Positions 21,583 through 58,846 of a stretch of DNA of 64,000 nucleotides are shown in pieces (the first letter of the stretch is position 1; each line of letters begins with the position of its first letter). The notes under the pieces were generated by a model, which was not told where the DNA came from, searched no databases, and saw only the letters and a program-made list of their open reading frames with translations. Both the position numbers and the translations under genes were made by a program. The stretch covers positions 51,278-115,277 of the forward strand of contig CALQZS010000002.1 of the NCBI GenBank assembly GCA_943349945.1. The letters run 5' to 3'. The stretch comes from Candidatus Nomurabacteria bacterium. Lineage in GTDB: Bacteria; Patescibacteriota; Minisyncoccia; Phycocordibacterales; SBAW01.

Positions 21583-22005
21583 TTATTTTTTCTTATTGCG
21601 GGGGAGGGGAAAGAGGAGGAAGTGGGCGGGATATTTTTGTTTAAGTCGAAAGAGGGCAGAGGTGGCGTACTGTTTTTTAAACTCGCGTTTGTCTAGCTCT
21701 TTTTCGAGCTCTGCAACAGCGCTCTCAAACCCAGGGAACTGGTCACATAACCATATCTGAACCCTGCATATCGTATCTCGCCCAACACGCAACTCTTCTT
21801 CTATAGCACGGTACGTGTGGCCTTGGATAAGCATGCGGGCAATAATAATGCGCCGCCCAAGCATCACGCGTTCGCTTTCTGTGAGCAAGTCCCGCAGAAA
21901 CAGCTTCATGGCGTCGCGTCCACGCACAGCACCCGCCGCGGTGTAGAGCATGTCCAACACTTCTATACGCTGTTTGTCGGTGAGGGCTCGCAAACGGACT
22001 TTCAT
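21583..22005 (-). CDS. TrpR/YerC/YecD-like helix-turn-helix regulator
   Basis: Its length (140 aa) and motif (TESERVMLGRRIIIARMLIQGHTYRAIEEELRVGRDTICRV) match the Trp-repressor-like YerC/YecD family. Confidence 0.7.
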   Translation of the reverse strand: MKVRLRALTDKQRIEVLDMLYTAAGAVRGRDAMKLFLRDLLTESERVMLGRRIIIARMLIQGHTYRAIEEELRVGRDTICRVQIWLCDQFPGFESAVAELEKELDKREFKKQYATSALFRLKQKYPAHFLLFPLPRNKKK

Positions 22006-22020: not shown

Positions 22021-22048
22021 ATAGTGGTTTGATATATCAAACCACTAT
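22021..22048. promoter_or_regulatory. 28-bp perfect palindrome ATAGTGGTTTGATATATCAAACCACTAT (operator-like, copy 2) between the regulator gene and grpE
   Basis: A perfect inverted repeat lying 3 bp upstream of a TTGACA (22051-56)-N16-TATACT (22073-78) promoter that faces grpE-dnaK. Confidence 0.65.
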
Positions 22049-22050
22049 TG

Positions 22051-22078
22051 TTGACAGCAACAAAAAATTGTCTATACT
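22051..22078 (+). promoter_or_regulatory. sigma-70-like promoter for grpE-dnaK (TTGACA-N16-TATACT)
   Basis: Consensus -35 and near-consensus -10 elements. The -10 lies 9 nt before the grpE ATG, so the leader is very short or absent. Confidence 0.55.
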
Positions 22079-42420: not shown

Positions 42421-43152
42421 ATGACTCCGGCAGTTTCCATTTCAGGCCTCAAAAAAACCTACGACACCGGTACCGAGGCGCTTAAAGGGGTCGACCTAGC
42501 GATAGAGCAGGGCGACTTTTTTGCGCTTTTGGGGCCAAACGGGGCAGGGAAGACCACCCTTATAGGTATTTTGTCTGGCTTAGTCACCAAAACCGGCGGC
42601 AGCGTAGAAGTATTTGGTACCTCAATTGACGCCGACGCACCCAAAGCCAAAACCCATATTGGGTTGGTGCCACAGGAGTTTAATTTTAATATTTTTGCCA
42701 AAGTAATCGACATAGTAGTTACCCAAGCAGGGTACTATGGGATGCCGCGCACCGAAGCTATTGCCCGCGCAGAAGAGCTTTTAAAAGAACTGGGGCTTTG
42801 GGACAAGCGCAACGAGCCTTCGCAAAAACTCTCGGGAGGTATGAAGCGCCGTTTGATGATTGCGCGTGGGTTGGTGCACGCACCCAAGCTCCTTATACTC
42901 GACGAGCCGACGGCAGGCGTGGATGTTGAGATGCGCCTGGGCATGTGGGAGTTTTTGCGCAAATTAAACGCGAGCGGCACGACCATTATTTTGACCACAC
43001 ACTACCTCGAAGAAGCCGAAGACCTGTGCCGCAACGTAGCGGTCATAAACCACGGGAAAATATTGGTGCACGAGTCTATGCAAGGCTTGCTCGAGCGCCA
43101 CGGCAAAGACAAGCTCGAAAACGTATACCTCGAACTCATTCGCCAAAAATAA
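42421..43152 (+). CDS. ABC transporter ATP-binding protein (ABC-2 type)
   Basis: Walker A (GPNGAGKTT), signature (LSGGMKRR) and Walker B (LLILDEPT). Start is at MTPAVSISGL. The longer ORF-track N-terminus was rejected. Confidence 0.9.
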   Translation: MTPAVSISGLKKTYDTGTEALKGVDLAIEQGDFFALLGPNGAGKTTLIGILSGLVTKTGGSVEVFGTSIDADAPKAKTHIGLVPQEFNFNIFAKVIDIVVTQAGYYGMPRTEAIARAEELLKELGLWDKRNEPSQKLSGGMKRRLMIARGLVHAPKLLILDEPTAGVDVEMRLGMWEFLRKLNASGTTIILTTHYLEEAEDLCRNVAVINHGKILVHESMQGLLERHGKDKLENVYLELIRQK

Positions 43153-47251: not shown

Positions 47252-47275
47252 GCTCAGTACAGATAAGTATAGTAT

Positions 47276-48523: not shown

Positions 48524-49741
48524 TTATCGTCCCAGCAAGTACTTCACCGCTGCATCAGTTTGCGGGTCTTTGCCTGCCTCCACATCTTTTGCTGTGCGTT
48601 CTACTTGGATATCTGCAACGAGTCCGCCATCAGATATAGACATGCCGTTTGGGGTTAGCCAGCGCGCGATGGTGATTTTAAGCTCGGCACCACCACCCAA
48701 CTCTACCAGCTGCTGTACAGAGCCTTTGCCGAAGGTGCGGGTACCCACGGTCTTAGCTACACCATGTTGTGCCAAAGCACCTGCCAAAATCTCTGATGCC
48801 GAAGCGGAGCCTTGGTTAATAAGTACTGCCATTTTGAAGCCTTTTTTATTTGCAAACACGTTATAGCCCAAACTGCGGTGTATAGTATTTTGTTGTTTAC
48901 CTTTAAAGTCTTCGGTCACCACAATATCCCCCACCGGCAGGAAGTAGCTGGCCATAGACACCGAAGCCTCTAGGTAGCCACCTGGATTACCACGCAAATC
49001 AAGTAAGAGTTTACTGCTCCCCGAAAGCACAAACTCGCGCAATGCATTGCGGAAGAGGTTGCTTGAGTTTTGAGAGAAGCTGTACAATTCGATAACGAAG
49101 ATACCGTCGTCGCGCTTGTACGACTTGAGCACCGGGATGCTAATTGTGTCGCGCACCACCGACACCACCCGAGGCTCTGATTCGCCCGGGCGCAAAAAGG
49201 TTAGTTCAATGGGCGTGCCCTTGGGTCCACGAATTAGCTTAATTGCCTCGTTGCTGTCTATAGATATAGCGCTCGTAGTACCTATGCGCGCAATAATGTC
49301 GCCGCTGCGGATACCTGCGCGCTCTGCCGGAGAGTCTTTGAGTGGTGCCACGACCACCAAGTCACCGTCGGCGTTGTTGTCTATCTCCATACCAACGCCC
49401 CCAAACGAGCCGCTTATGTCTTCTTGGAAAACTTGTGCATCCGAGGGCGGCAAAAAGACCGTGTACGGGTCACCAAAACTTCGCGCAAGGCCGGAGATGG
49501 CGCCGTATATCTGCTCTTGGGTCGTAGGGAGCGTACTGGACGAGTTGGACATCACAAATTTGGTGTTGAGCACTTGGTACGCCTCCCAAAACTGTTGCAT
49601 GTCTATGTCGGCAGGGTTTGCAAAAGAGGTGCTTGTTGCTGCAAAACTTTGTCGCTCCGAGACACCGGCGTATACACCGCCGCCAAAGGCTATGAGCAAA
49701 CTAAGCACCACCGCAACAGCACTACCCTGTGTTTTAGTCAT
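48524..49741 (-). CDS. ctpA: carboxyl-terminal processing protease (S41, CtpA/Prc-like) with PDZ domain
   Basis: S41 catalytic Ser/Lys region and PDZ domain. Start is placed at MTKTQGSAVAVVL (ATG 49741; alternative 49750). The upstream ORF-track extension was rejected. Confidence 0.88.
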   Translation of the reverse strand: MTKTQGSAVAVVLSLLIAFGGGVYAGVSERQSFAATSTSFANPADIDMQQFWEAYQVLNTKFVMSNSSSTLPTTQEQIYGAISGLARSFGDPYTVFLPPSDAQVFQEDISGSFGGVGMEIDNNADGDLVVVAPLKDSPAERAGIRSGDIIARIGTTSAISIDSNEAIKLIRGPKGTPIELTFLRPGESEPRVVSVVRDTISIPVLKSYKRDDGIFVIELYSFSQNSSNLFRNALREFVLSGSSKLLLDLRGNPGGYLEASVSMASYFLPVGDIVVTEDFKGKQQNTIHRSLGYNVFANKKGFKMAVLINQGSASASEILAGALAQHGVAKTVGTRTFGKGSVQQLVELGGGAELKITIARWLTPNGMSISDGGLVADIQVERTAKDVEAGKDPQTDAAVKYLLGR

Positions 49742-49748
49742 ACCGACC

Positions 49749-49768
49749 ATTATACCACATGGTATACT
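49749..49768. promoter_or_regulatory. back-to-back divergent extended -10 promoters (minus TGgTATAAT for ctpA; plus TGgTATACT for corA)
   Basis: Each -10 hexamer lies exactly 7 nt before the ATG of its gene (49741 on the minus strand, 49776 on the plus strand), implying leaderless mRNAs. Confidence 0.55.
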
Positions 49769-49775
49769 CGAGAGT

Positions 49776-50687
49776 ATGTTGACACGGTATGCGCGCAAAG
49801 ACGTAACCTGGGTAGACTGTGTCTCCCCTTCCTCCGCAGAAGTACGCTCGCTCATACAGGAGTTTGGTATCGACCCTCTCATTGCCGAAGAACTACTGCT
49901 ACCCTCCTATAAGTCCAAGGTCGAACAGCGCAGCGACCACCTCTATGTCATACTCCACTTCCCTGTGTTGCATGGCGCACACCGCCACCCCGAACAAGAA
50001 ATAGACTTTCTTATCGGCAAAAATTTTTTGATCACCACCCGGTACGAAAACGTGGACCCGCTACACTCGTTTGCAAAAGCGTTCGAGGTTGAAGAAGTGC
50101 TTGGCCGCGACAGCACCACAACCCACGGCGGACACTTGTTTGTGTCGATGACACAAAATCTCTACCAAGCACTGCTCAACGAGTGCGACACACTGCGCAA
50201 GCGGCTATGGAATATCGAAGAGCATATTTTCCGCGGCGATGAACGCCGCATGGTTGCCCAACTTTCCCAAGTAGGGCGCAACATACATGACTTCCGTCAG
50301 TCGCTTGCACCGCACAATGAAATGCTGCTGTCTTTTGACCCTGCCGGCACACGCATGTTTGGTCCAGAGTTTTCCTACCATGTGCGTAGCTTGACCAACG
50401 CCTATAACCGGGTCGAGCGGGTGCTCACTGGCCTACACGACTCGTTGGGTGAGCTACGCGAGACCAACAACTCACTCCTCTCGACCAAGCAAAATGAAAT
50501 AATGAAAACGCTTACTATTATGGCGTTTGTCACCTTCCCACTTACCCTTATCTCGAGTGTATTTGGTATGAACACCTCCTACCTTCCTATCGTAGGACTG
50601 TCGGGTGACTTTTGGATGGTGATTGGTATGATGATGGTACTTGCCGCAAGCTTTTTTGTATATTTTAGACACAAAGGCTGGCTATAA
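49776..50687 (+). CDS. corA: magnesium/cobalt transporter CorA
   Basis: C-terminal two-TM region with a GMN motif (FGMNTSYLP). The N-terminal 220 aa of the ORF-track entry are antisense to ctpA and were rejected. Confidence 0.85.
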   Translation: MLTRYARKDVTWVDCVSPSSAEVRSLIQEFGIDPLIAEELLLPSYKSKVEQRSDHLYVILHFPVLHGAHRHPEQEIDFLIGKNFLITTRYENVDPLHSFAKAFEVEEVLGRDSTTTHGGHLFVSMTQNLYQALLNECDTLRKRLWNIEEHIFRGDERRMVAQLSQVGRNIHDFRQSLAPHNEMLLSFDPAGTRMFGPEFSYHVRSLTNAYNRVERVLTGLHDSLGELRETNNSLLSTKQNEIMKTLTIMAFVTFPLTLISSVFGMNTSYLPIVGLSGDFWMVIGMMMVLAASFFVYFRHKGWL

Positions 50688-55212: not shown

Positions 55213-56313
55213 CTATTCCTTACCCTCTAAAATAGGCTTATCTAGCAGCCCTATGTCTATATTTATGTCTGTTGAGGCGTCTATTTTGAGCACGTCCTTT
55301 TCTATCTTGCCCAGCTCCTTGGTGCCCGCGTTATAGTGGTTAACCGTGGTCGAAAGCGATGCTCCGAGCTTTTTGTAATAGTCTTGGTAGGCGTTTATAT
55401 GCCGCCCTAGCGCCTCGACATTCTTAGCAATATCTTTTGCCTGCTCTTCTATCTTAAATGCTTTAAATCCATACAGCACCGACTGCAGGTAGGCAGCAAA
55501 GGTTGTGGGCGACACAATAATAACCTTGCGGTCGTTTTGCGCATAGTCCAGCAAGCTGCGCGTGTTGACCGCCCCCACCCCGTCGTTAAGCAGGTCGTAG
55601 TAAATACTCTCGGCAGGTATGTACATAAACGCAAAAGAAAGCGTGCCATCCTTGGGCCGCACATATTTACTGGTCTCGTCGATGCGCTTTTTGAGGTCGC
55701 GCTTGAATGCTTCTTCAAACTCTACCCGGCGAATGTCGTCTTTTTCGTCATGCAGACGGGTGTAGTTTTCTAGTGGAAATTTTGCGTCCACAGGGATAAT
55801 CCCCTCTTTGGTGCGAATTATTGCGTCCACCGTTTCGCCGCCAGGAAACTCGTACTGCATAGCGTAGGCGCCAGGCGGCAGGATGTTGCTCATCACCAGC
55901 TCTAGCGATGCCTCGCCCAAGTTACCGCGCTGCTTTTGGTTTTTGAGCACCTTTTCCAAATTCGATAACTGTTCGGCAATCACAAACACCTGCTTGGTAG
56001 ACTCCTGAGTTTGGGTCACCCCCTTAACCACCTCGATAAGCTGCTCGCTCACCTGTTTGGTAATAGTGGCCATCAGCGCGCGCGCTTGGTCGGACTGCTG
56101 GCTGATTTGGTTTGACTGCGACGACATAAACTCAGACATGTTCTTTGTCCCTTCTCCCAGTTTTGTATCCATGGCACGAGTGAGCTCGGCAAGTTGGTTT
56201 TGTAGCAACATCAACCCCTGCGTGTCCGCAGGCGCATCTGTTTTTGGACGCAGAAAAAAGTACGCAACCAGCCCCAAGTTAGCAACCAAAAGCACCACGA
56301 TAAGCCATTCCAT
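55213..56313 (-). CDS. rmuC: DNA recombination protein RmuC
   Basis: N-terminal TM, coiled coil and a RmuC nuclease-like C-terminal domain (VDAKFPLENY...). Confidence 0.8.
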   Translation of the reverse strand: MEWLIVVLLVANLGLVAYFFLRPKTDAPADTQGLMLLQNQLAELTRAMDTKLGEGTKNMSEFMSSQSNQISQQSDQARALMATITKQVSEQLIEVVKGVTQTQESTKQVFVIAEQLSNLEKVLKNQKQRGNLGEASLELVMSNILPPGAYAMQYEFPGGETVDAIIRTKEGIIPVDAKFPLENYTRLHDEKDDIRRVEFEEAFKRDLKKRIDETSKYVRPKDGTLSFAFMYIPAESIYYDLLNDGVGAVNTRSLLDYAQNDRKVIIVSPTTFAAYLQSVLYGFKAFKIEEQAKDIAKNVEALGRHINAYQDYYKKLGASLSTTVNHYNAGTKELGKIEKDVLKIDASTDINIDIGLLDKPILEGKE

Positions 56314-56342
56314 ACCCCTATTCTACATGATAGAATGCCAGA

Positions 56343-56795
56343 ATGACACAAAATGACCTGCGAGAATCGATGAAGGACGCTATGCGTGCCAAAGATACAG
56401 TGCGCTTGTCTGTTATACGCGGCATTTTAACCATGGTCACCAACGACCTCGTAGCTAAAGGCAATAAACCGACCGACACACTACCCGAAGACGACATCAT
56501 GGCGCTCGTGCGCCGCGCCGCAAAACAGCGCAAAGACTCTATAGAGCAGTTCGAAAAAGGTGGCCGCGCTGACTTGGCCGAAACAGAAAAAGCCGAACTT
56601 GTGATACTTGAGAGCATGCTCCCCGCGCAGATGCCTGAGGACGCGGTGCGCGCAGCGGCAGTGGCCAAAGCAGCAGAGCTGGGTATCACCGACAAAACAA
56701 AAGCAAATCAACTCATGGGCGCCTTGATGAAAGACCTTAAAGGCAAAGCGGATGGCTCGGTAGTAAAAGCCGTGGTAGAGAGTTTGTTTGCGTAG
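56343..56795 (+). CDS. yqeY: GatB/YqeY domain protein
   Basis: YqeY-like motif (LRESMKDAMRAKDTVRLSVIRGI...). Confidence 0.8.
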   Translation: MTQNDLRESMKDAMRAKDTVRLSVIRGILTMVTNDLVAKGNKPTDTLPEDDIMALVRRAAKQRKDSIEQFEKGGRADLAETEKAELVILESMLPAQMPEDAVRAAAVAKAAELGITDKTKANQLMGALMKDLKGKADGSVVKAVVESLFA

Positions 56796-58621: not shown

Positions 58622-58846
58622 TTGGTATACTGGCGGTATATGGATCACAAAAGACTCTACAAAAGCGACACGAACAAAGTATTTGCCGGAATTTGCGGTG
58701 GGTTTGGGGAGTATCTAAACATCGACCCAGTACTCTTGCGTGTGGTGTGGCTGTTGGTGGTTATCTTTACTGGCGTAGTCCCTGGAGTATTGGCCTACAT
58801 TATTGCCGCATTTATAATCCCCAACCACACCCACCACACCAACTAG
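58622..58846 (+). CDS. PspC domain membrane protein
   Basis: KRLYKSDTNKVFAGICGGFGEYLNIDPVLLRVVW matches the PspC domain. Confidence 0.75.
   Translation: MVYWRYMDHKRLYKSDTNKVFAGICGGFGEYLNIDPVLLRVVWLLVVIFTGVVPGVLAYIIAAFIIPNHTHHTN

What the first reader, a model, noticed from the sequence alone, without database searches (positions are those of the whole stretch)
49739..49778. Back-to-back divergent leaderless promoters sharing a 25-bp intergenic region (ctpA / corA)
The minus-strand TGgTATAAT (49749-49757) and plus-strand TGgTATACT (49760-49768) are separated by 2 bp. Each is followed after exactly 7 nt by the ATG of its gene (ctpA at 49741 on the minus strand, corA at 49776 on the plus strand). 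The two RNAP footprints must overlap almost completely, which predicts mutually exclusive initiation between a periplasmic protease gene and a Mg2+ channel gene.
Basis: seen in the sequence. Interest (0 to 1): 0.5.

Follow-up and report, generated by a model that had tools for sequence, protein, structure and literature searches.

The report
Two back-to-back minimal leaderless promoters
Two neighbouring genes that point away from each other in a tiny-genome (Patescibacteria) bacterium each appear to start transcription and translation at the same ATG from a 9-bp promoter box; this is how the organism normally builds promoters, squeezed here almost to the minimum possible spacing, not a special switch.

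Summary
TGGTATAAT (minus strand, 49757-49749) and TGGTATACT (plus strand, 49760-49768) lie 2 bp apart, and each sits exactly 7 nt before an ATG (ctpA at 49741, corA at 49776). The one error is the gap between the ATGs, which is 34 bp, not 25.

The leaderless, divergent-promoter reading is well supported by indirect evidence. The window has almost no Shine-Dalgarno sequences. TAnnnT sits 5-10 nt before the ATG in 23 of 40 operon-head genes but only 3 of 27 operon-internal genes. There is no -35 signal.

The divergent ctpA/corA pair was found in 71 of 80 related species. In 31 of the 32 species where both starts align cleanly, each gene keeps its own near-invariant TGnTATACT 6-11 nt from its ATG. 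The gap between the genes ranges from 21 to 76 bp.

The tight spacing is therefore not conserved. It arose from a recent 26-bp deletion and is shared only with a relative whose CorA is 90% identical. A second pair in the window (rmuC/yqeY, 29 bp) has the same geometry.

Two polymerases almost certainly cannot occupy both promoters at once. Nothing indicates that this exclusion is a selected regulatory device, and E. coli work shows such competition matters only at high promoter activity. No transcript 5' ends are available.

Verdict: a new member of a known kind, of modest interest.

The parts
49749..49757 (-). Extended -10 element TGGTATAAT of the ctpA promoter (hexamer TATAAT 49754-49749, TG at 49757-49756)
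   Evidence: Homologous TGnTATACT on the ctpA side in 31/32 species, with TG in 29/31.
49760..49768 (+). Extended -10 element TGGTATACT of the corA promoter (hexamer TATACT 49763-49768)
   Evidence: TAnnnT lies 5-11 nt before the corA ATG in 78/81 loci. T-A-T-A-C/A-T is nearly invariant.
49742..49748 (-). 7-nt discriminator/spacer (GGTCGGT) between the ctpA -10 and its ATG; not conserved in sequence
   Evidence: It varies even in the relative whose CorA is 90% identical (ACCGACC vs ACTGGCC).
49769..49775 (+). 7-nt discriminator/spacer (CGAGAGT) between the corA -10 and its ATG
   Evidence: Sequence is variable and length is 6-10 nt in relatives.
49739..49741 (-). ctpA start codon ATG; the A at 49741 is the predicted transcription start (inferred, not measured)
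   Evidence: Relatives' CtpA aligns from residue 1 on an ATG at this position in 32 species. The upstream extension is not conserved.
49776..49778 (+). corA start codon ATG; the A at 49776 is the predicted transcription start (inferred, not measured)
   Evidence: ATG at the homologous position in 81/81 loci. Most homologues are 303 aa with 100% coverage.
48524..49741 (-). ctpA, S41 C-terminal processing peptidase with a PDZ domain, 405 aa, N-terminal membrane anchor
   Evidence: Pfam PF03572 at 7e-43, plus PDZ.
49776..50687 (+). corA, CorA-family Mg2+/Co2+ channel, 303 aa; first gene of a same-strand run (corA, cysS, dnaB, recR)
   Evidence: Pfam PF01544 at 5e-52. Gene order. cysS starts 5 bp after the corA stop.

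Best explanation
The 34 bp between ctpA and corA hold two separate sigma-70-type promoters placed back to back. Neither uses a -35 element. Each consists of little more than an extended -10 box (TGnTATAMT). RNA polymerase is predicted to start 7 nt downstream of each box, on the A of the ATG. Both mRNAs would then be leaderless and would be translated from a 5'-terminal AUG without a Shine-Dalgarno sequence.

This is the standard way this Adlerbacteria-like Patescibacteria lineage expresses the first gene of an operon. Such a promoter needs only about 16 bp per gene, so divergent genes can be packed very tightly. The arrangement here is near the limit for two non-overlapping 9-mers. It arose through a recent 26-bp deletion between the two boxes.

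Two polymerases very probably cannot sit on both promoters at once. That exclusion is best read as a by-product of genome compaction, not a purpose-built switch.

Shown: the sequence anatomy, the genome-wide pattern, and the cross-species conservation of both boxes and both start codons. Inferred: the transcription start positions, leaderless translation, and steric exclusion.
For: - Anatomy is exactly as described.
- Genome style: SD-like sequence in only 5 of 67 genes. TAnnnT lies 5-10 nt before the ATG in 23/40 operon-head genes, 3/27 operon-internal genes (Fisher p = 1.2e-4) and 7.6% of all ATGs. A peak at 6-9 nt is visible without any gene calls.
- 26 window promoters aligned on the -10 show G at -14 in 20/26 and no -35 signal. 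Their best -35 matches are distributed like random sequence.
- The divergent ctpA/corA pair was found in 71 of 80 related species, down to 45% CorA identity.
- In 31 of the 32 species alignable from residue 1, both sides have TAnnnT 6-11 nt from the ATG, against 7% by shuffling. The consensus is a near-invariant TATACT, with TG in 29/31 on the ctpA side and 22/32 on the corA side. The distance between the hexamers ranges from -4 to +44 bp.
- The corA start is ATG in 81/81 loci, with a -10 at 5-11 nt in 78/81.
- The discriminator and the inter-box spacer are not conserved. This is what a promoter predicts and what an RBS or operator does not.
- The organism is Patescibacteria/Adlerbacteria-like. 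A Parcubacteria subgroup is reported to have lost the anti-SD motif (PMC9297842).
- A -10 box 6-8 nt from the start codon is the published signature of leaderless 'group C' bacteria (PMC6028130; PMC12340547).
- No known RNA family lies upstream of corA and there is no room for a leader, so no M-box.
Against: - There is no TSS or 5'-end evidence for this organism or any close relative.
- No paper in the searched library reports leaderless mRNAs in Patescibacteria.
- Within the window alone the sequence statistics are moderate: z of about 3.5 for the extended motif, and none for plain TAnnnT-N5-9-ATG.
- 17 of 40 operon-head genes lack the motif at this distance, so not every gene follows the rule.
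- Initiation 1-3 nt upstream of the A cannot be excluded.
- Most public gene callers chose ATG 49750 for ctpA.
Confidence: 0.8

Rival explanations
1. One reading: the near-complete footprint overlap is a functional toggle. [quoted passage not shown]
For: The geometry fits. Predicted starts are 35 bp apart, so E. coli-type -55..+20 footprints coincide at 49721-49796 (arithmetic). RNAP competition at overlapping divergent promoters is real in E. coli when one direction is strongly activated (PMC12825309). The gene pair itself is conserved across the class.
Against: The spacing is not conserved. It ranges from 21 to 76 bp, and relatives at 81-89% CorA identity have 60 bp between the ATGs. The same layout occurs at the unrelated rmuC/yqeY pair (29 bp), and 4 of the 9 divergent pairs in the window have gaps of 36 bp or less, which points to general compaction. 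All five E. coli bidirectional promoters tested had basal activity too low for competition. No activator site or regulator is evident.
Confidence: 0.12
2. The 20-bp inverted repeat ATTATACCA-CA-TGGTATACT is an operator for a dimeric transcription factor that co-regulates both genes.
For: It is a 9-bp-arm inverted repeat matching at 8 of 9 positions. Extended, it is 19 nt at 74% complementarity. It is centred between the two genes.
Against: In relatives the two arms drift from overlapping to 44 bp apart, while each stays at a fixed distance from its own ATG. An operator would keep the arm-to-arm spacing. The arm sequence equals the genome-wide promoter consensus found in front of many unrelated genes. 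The symmetry follows automatically from two -10 boxes on opposite strands.
Confidence: 0.04
3. ctpA starts upstream, at ATG 49750 (408 aa, as in most public calls) or at 49882 (452 aa), and is transcribed with a leader from another promoter. The gap would then be 25 bp or the genes would overlap.
For: The ORF stays open up to 49882. Gene callers chose 49750 in L002-L005. A weak TACCAT lies 8 nt before ATG 49750.
Against: ATG 49750 lies inside the TATAAT hexamer. In L087 the two extra codons change (VG to AS) while the next 16 residues are identical. 13 of 35 species have no in-frame alternative start upstream, and 14 of 35 have a stop within 12 codons. CtpA homologues align from M1 of MTKTQ... 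in 32 species. MTKTQGSAVAVVLSLLIAFGG is a typical N-terminal membrane anchor (inference). The 452-aa form would overlap 107 nt of corA on the opposite strand.
Confidence: 0.06
4. The TATA-like box is not a promoter but a non-SD translation-initiation signal on a leadered mRNA, like GeneMarkS-2 'group B' genomes.
For: The genome lacks SD sequences, so some other ribosome-recruiting signal could be expected. The motif sits at the distance where an RBS would sit.
Against: The motif is absent from operon-internal genes (3/27 against 23/40). Group B motifs precede all genes (PMC6028130). The conserved positions are exactly those of a sigma-70 extended -10: T-12, A-11, T-7, and TG one base upstream. 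In the 21-bp relatives no room is left for any other promoter.
Confidence: 0.04
5. The two promoters help each other instead of excluding each other. Diverging polymerases leave negative supercoils between them, which ease melting of the neighbouring -10 (twin-domain coupling) and give co-expression.
For: Topological coupling of close divergent promoters is established (PMC5175336 and PMC4469952, listed; abstracts only read). Promoters that rely on the -10 alone without a -35 would be expected to be sensitive to how easily the DNA melts (inference).
Against: Nothing in the sequence tests this. Coupling does not need such tight spacing. The effect has not been studied in these organisms.
Confidence: 0.15

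Closest known systems
Leaderless 'group C' bacterial gene starts (GeneMarkS-2 classification; Actinobacteria, Deinococcus-Thermus), with a -10 box adjacent to the ORF
   Same: A TAnnnT Pribnow box lies 6-9 nt before an ATG, only at first genes of operons, in a genome with little SD usage.
   Different: The lineage is Patescibacteria/Adlerbacteria-like, which the papers found do not report as leaderless. The consensus is TGnTATACT with a strong extended TG and no -35. Operon-internal genes also lack SD, whereas group C internal genes usually have an RBS.
Extended -10 (TGn) promoters of sigma-70 (established E. coli and Gram-positive promoter class; from my own knowledge)
   Same: TG lies one base upstream of the hexamer on both strands. 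There is no recognisable -35.
   Different: Function is untested here. In this genome the class appears to be the default, not a minority.
Bidirectional promoters sensu Warman/Grainger (shared or overlapping -10 elements; divergent TSSs 7-25 bp apart, most often 18 bp)
   Same: Divergent transcription comes from a very short symmetric segment. One polymerase binding event should exclude the other.
   Different: In the window the hexamers do not overlap (8 bp between them) and the predicted starts are 35 bp apart. That is outside the definition, so these are 'separate divergent promoters'. Relatives L030 and L047 (21-bp gap, a single AGTATACT read on both strands, predicted starts 22 bp apart) would qualify.
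Classical overlapping divergent promoter pairs with competition, e.g. Tn10 tetA/tetR (from memory, not checked here)
   Same: Back-to-back promoters whose polymerase binding sites overlap.
   Different: Those systems have operators and a repressor between or over the promoters, and their mRNAs have leaders. No operator or regulator is evident here.

Membership tests
Leaderless (-10-adjacent, 'group C' type) gene start | -10 box TAnnnT ending about 6-9 nt upstream of the start codon | tested here: met
   7 nt on both strands. 6-11 nt in 31/32 species.
Leaderless (-10-adjacent, 'group C' type) gene start | Start codon is AUG, as required at a 5' terminus | tested here: met
   ATG for both genes. 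corA is ATG in 81/81 loci. ctpA is ATG in the 32 species aligned from residue 1.
Leaderless (-10-adjacent, 'group C' type) gene start | No Shine-Dalgarno sequence, and the motif restricted to first genes of operons | tested here: met
   SD-like sequence in 5/67 genes. Motif in 23/40 operon-head genes against 3/27 internal genes, p = 1.2e-4.
Leaderless (-10-adjacent, 'group C' type) gene start | Mapped mRNA 5' end at, or within 1-3 nt of, the start codon | not testable with these tools
   No transcriptome data. No TSS study of this lineage was found.
Extended -10, -35-independent sigma-70 promoter | TG at -15/-14, one base upstream of the hexamer | tested here: met
   TGG-TATAAT and TGG-TATACT. 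TG in 29/31 species (ctpA side) and 22/32 (corA side).
Extended -10, -35-independent sigma-70 promoter | No usable -35 hexamer at a 16-18 bp spacing | tested here: met
   The -35 positions fall on ATACCG (plus promoter) and ATACTC (minus promoter), read. Window-wide -35 scores equal random.
Bidirectional promoter (Warman et al.) | Divergent TSSs 7-25 bp apart | tested here: not met
   Predicted starts are at 49741 and 49776, 35 bp apart. Definition. These are predictions, not measured TSSs.
Bidirectional promoter (Warman et al.) | -10 elements on opposite strands overlap, so key positions base-pair with each other | tested here: not met
   The hexamers 49749-49754 and 49763-49768 are 8 bp apart. 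The feature is met in relatives L030 and L047.
Palindromic operator for a dimeric regulator | Arm-to-arm spacing conserved among relatives | tested here: not met
   The distance between the arms ranges from -4 to +44 bp.
M-box or other Mg2+ riboswitch control of a Mg2+ transporter | Structured 5' leader matching an Rfam family | tested here: not met
   Rfam finds only two tRNAs in the window. No leader is possible in 7 nt.

The most novel reading that the evidence does not exclude
A whole Patescibacteria class (Adlerbacteria and Paceibacteria-like), part of which has lost the anti-SD, expresses operon-head genes as leaderless mRNAs from minimal, -35-independent TGnTATACT promoters. This lets divergent genes shrink their shared control region to 21-34 bp. 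At that limit the two promoters share one polymerase-binding site, so ctpA and corA would fire in anticorrelated bursts. That would be a regulator-free toggle created purely by genome streamlining. The first half is likely (my estimate is about 0.7), but it only extends a known mechanism to a new phylum. The probability given here is for the functional-toggle half.
Probability: 0.1. Interest if true: 0.55.

Novelty: new member of a known kind. Interest (0 to 1): 0.3.

Why it matters
For this locus, little. It is a housekeeping promoter pair, and the overlap is most likely a side effect of compaction.

The broader pattern is more useful. It gives a concrete, testable promoter and start-codon rule for an uncultured, SD-poor CPR lineage: TGnTATACT, then 6-9 nt, then ATG. 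Standard gene callers visibly mis-place starts in this lineage (ctpA 405 or 408 aa, yqeY 150 or 141 aa, cysS 486 or 455 aa).

The ctpA/corA series across species runs from one shared palindromic -10 (21 bp) through abutting boxes (27-34 bp) to well-separated promoters (up to 76 bp). This is a natural spacing series that could be cloned to measure when RNA polymerase competition at divergent promoters begins.

Tried and rejected
- The generic promoter scan missed both boxes because it requires a -35. That is uninformative for -35-less promoters.
- My first greedy ORF call was misled by a spurious 523-aa plus-strand ORF that covers corA and overlaps ctpA antisense. I replaced it with a codon-usage-scored call.
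- The plain TAnnnT-N5-9-ATG count is not enriched window-wide (119 against 112 +/- 11), because true gene starts are diluted among all ATGs. Only the extended motif and the gene-start-conditioned tests show signal.
- The operator hypothesis for the inverted repeat is rejected on variable arm spacing.
- The non-SD RBS hypothesis is rejected on the head-versus-internal contrast.
- The upstream-start hypotheses for ctpA are rejected on comparative grounds.
- Folding the first 60 nt of each predicted mRNA showed nothing unusual (z = -0.5 and +0.9).
- Rfam found no RNA element near the locus.
- Literature searches for leaderless mRNAs in Patescibacteria/CPR gave no direct report. The Nanosynbacter TSS paper (PMID 35975994) is not held.
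- One DNA search, one paper search, one paper reading and one Pfam call failed on input format.
Full report
**Observation.** The sequence at 49739-49778 reads CAT-ACCGACC-ATTATACCA-CA-TGGTATACT-CGAGAGT-ATG.
- The plus-strand 9-mer TGGTATACT (49760-49768) is followed by 7 nt and the ATG at 49776.
- The reverse complement of 49749-49757 is TGGTATAAT, followed on the minus strand by 7 nt (GGTCGGT) and the ATG whose A is at 49741.
- The two 9-mers are 2 bp apart.
- Pfam confirms the genes. The minus-strand ORF from 49741 (405 aa) is a Peptidase_S41/PDZ protein (CtpA-like), and the plus-strand ORF from 49776 (303 aa) is a CorA channel.
- Every coordinate in the finding is correct except the '25-bp intergenic region'. 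49742-49775 is 34 bp. The figure of 25 bp applies only if ctpA starts at the alternative ATG at 49750 (MVGMTKTQ...), which several public gene calls use (408 aa against 405 aa).

**Is it more than chance?** The strict motif TGnTATAMT occurs five times on both strands, close to the roughly four expected from base composition (my own arithmetic). The count alone proves nothing. The placement does matter.
- Four of the five lie 7-9 nt before an ATG: ctpA, corA, the gene at 42421, and a small PspC-like ORF at 58640.
- TGnTAnnnT-N5-9-ATG occurs 18 times against 7.7 +/- 2.9 in Markov-1 simulations.
- A histogram of the distance from TAnnnT to ATGs that open at least 100 codons peaks at 6-9 nt.

**Genome context.** The window comes from a Patescibacteria (CPR) genome, contig CALRAT010000001.1 of MAG GCA_943353435.1. 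The closest named relatives are Candidatus Adlerbacteria and Paceibacterota. I made a codon-usage-scored gene call of about 68 genes.
- An SD-like sequence precedes only 5 of 67 genes.
- TAnnnT lies 5-10 nt before the first ATG in 23 of 40 genes that head a transcription unit (divergent from the upstream neighbour, or at least 25 bp from it).
- The same is true of only 3 of 27 operon-internal genes (Fisher p = 1.2e-4) and 7.6% of all ATGs.
- Aligning 26 such putative promoters on the hexamer gives T-12, A-11 and T-7 by construction, A at -9 in 21/26, C or A at -8, and G at -14 in 20/26. There is no information at -35. The best -35 matches are distributed like random sequence, and only the grpE promoter has a full TTGACA.

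This is the published signature of leaderless 'group C' bacteria, where a Pribnow box lies 6-8 nt from the start of first genes in operons (GeneMarkS-2, PMC6028130). It was shown experimentally in Deinococcus (PMC12340547). It also fits the report that about half of Parcubacteria lack the anti-SD motif in 16S rRNA (PMC9297842). I found no paper that states Patescibacteria use leaderless mRNAs.

**Comparative evidence.** A scan of one genome per species returned 80 CorA loci.
- The divergent S41-peptidase/CorA pair was found in 71 of them, down to 45% CorA identity.
- corA starts with ATG at the homologous position in 81/81 loci. A TAnnnT lies 5-11 nt upstream in 78/81, most often at 6-7 nt.
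- In the 32 species where both proteins align from residue 1 on an ATG, 31 carry a TAnnnT on both sides, against 7% in shuffled controls.
- The boxes are nearly invariant T-A-T-A-C-T, preceded by TG in 29/31 (ctpA side) and 22/32 (corA side).
- The sequences between box and ATG, and between the two boxes, are not conserved.

The gap between the ATGs ranges from 21 to 76 bp, and the distance between the hexamers from -4 to +44 bp.
- At 21 bp (L030, L047) a single palindromic AGTATACT is read as TATACT on both strands.
- At 27 bp (L008, L011) the boxes abut.
- At 33-34 bp (L024, L032, this window) the two 9-mers are 0-2 bp apart.
- Most species have 40-66 bp.

Each box therefore keeps its register with its own start codon, not with the other box. 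That is the behaviour of two independent promoters. It is not the behaviour of a palindromic operator.

**How recent is the tight spacing?** The relative whose CorA is 90% identical (L087) has the same 34-bp region. The next relatives (L063 and L088, at 89% and 81%) have 60 bp between the ATGs. They carry the same boxes with exactly 26 extra bp between the CA and the TGG. Six independent assemblies of the window's own species are identical here. The compaction is a recent deletion, and similar compactions happened independently in other branches.

**The ctpA start.** ATG 49750 consists of the last two bases of the TATAAT hexamer plus the following G.
- In L087 the two codons between it and ATG 49741 both change (VG to AS), while the next 16 residues are identical.
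- In 13 of 35 species there is no in-frame start codon upstream of the conserved ATG, and 14 of 35 have a stop within 12 codons.
- The long 452-aa form would overlap corA antisense by 107 nt.

**Mechanism.** Shown: the anatomy, the genome-wide pattern and the conservation. Inferred: sigma-70 holoenzyme recognises each TGnTATAMT without a -35 and starts on the purine 7 nt downstream, which is the A of the ATG. 70S ribosomes would then initiate on the 5'-terminal AUG.

The sequence-specific contacts (-17 to +1) do not overlap, but the bodies of two holoenzymes would clash. This last point is an inference from established RNAP structure.

Whether the clash matters is a separate question. In E. 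coli, all five tested bidirectional promoters had basal activity too low for competition. Interference appeared only when one direction was strongly activated (PMC12825309). Here the spacing is evolutionarily free. An unrelated pair in the window, rmuC (ATG 56313, minus strand) and yqeY (ATG 56343, plus strand), has the same layout in 29 bp: ATTCTA-CA-TGATAGAAT, with 6 nt to each ATG. Four of the nine divergent pairs in the window have gaps of 36 bp or less. The simplest reading is genome streamlining. A promoter that needs only about 16 bp and no leader allows divergent genes to approach to about 30 bp, or 21 bp if the hexamers overlap.

**Comparison with known systems.**
- The pair works like leaderless group C promoters and like extended -10 promoters. 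It meets every sequence-level criterion for both. The mapped 5' end could not be tested.
- It is not a bidirectional promoter in the sense of Warman et al., who require TSSs 7-25 bp apart and overlapping -10s. The predicted separation is 35 bp and the hexamers are 8 bp apart. The 21-bp relatives would qualify.
- There is no riboswitch or other Rfam element, and no leader in which one could sit.

**Verdict.** The 'divergent leaderless promoters' interpretation is well supported, though only indirectly. The 'mutually exclusive initiation' idea is physically plausible, but nothing supports it as a regulatory feature. This is a new member of a known kind. Its main value is as a clear example of the promoter and start-codon grammar of an SD-poor CPR lineage, and as a natural spacing series for studying polymerase competition.

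Noticed in passing
window 56311-56345: A second back-to-back pair with the same geometry. rmuC (ATG 56313, minus strand) and yqeY (ATG 56343, plus strand) are 29 bp apart: ATTCTA-CA-TGATAGAAT, each box 6 nt from its ATG. The Pfam YqeY match starts at residue 4, which supports the 150-aa start over the public 141-aa call.
   Followed up: partly
window 22021-22057: A perfect 28-bp palindrome ATAGTGGTTTGATA|TATCAAACCACTAT ends 3 bp before the only full TTGACA-17-TATACT promoter in the window, which drives grpE (22088) with dnaK downstream. It is divergent from a Trp_repressor-family gene (21583-22005, minus strand). It is probably an operator for the chaperone operon.
   Followed up: partly
L058, L064, L065, L072, L073, L080, L081 (ctpA side of the intergenic region): In more distant Paceibacteria/Kaiserbacteria-like genomes, ctpA is preceded by a conserved canonical promoter, TTGACn-17-bp-GATAAT/GATACT with TGC before the hexamer, and by an apparent leader. 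This differs from the leaderless arrangement of the Adlerbacteria-like clade. corA keeps its -10 6-9 nt from the ATG throughout.
   Followed up: no
window 58623-58846: A small ORF (68 aa, MDHKRLYKSDTNKVFAGICGGFGEYLN..., PspC-like by eye) has TGGTATACT 8 nt before its ATG at 58640. It fell below the size cut-off of my gene list.
   Followed up: no
whole window; e.g. 28966, 30287, 34677, 35231, 36136, 39448, 43154, 50693: Operon-internal genes have neither an SD-like sequence nor a -10 box (1/27 and 3/27). Many start 0-10 bp after, or overlap, the preceding stop. How they are translated is open; re-initiation or coupling is possible.
   Followed up: no
L001-L006 against the window: ctpA, cysS (50693), yqeY (56343): Public gene callers disagree on start codons for the same DNA: ctpA 405 or 408 aa, cysS 486 or 455 aa, yqeY 150 or 141 aa. 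This is a practical consequence of a genome with no SD and leaderless starts.
   Followed up: partly
window 47252-47275 and 2601-2636: Two further very short divergent gaps: 24 bp between a hypothetical gene and rpmA, and 36 bp at 2600/2637. At least one side of each lacks a -10 at the leaderless distance. Either these starts are mis-called or those genes have short leaders from promoters inside the neighbouring gene.
   Followed up: no
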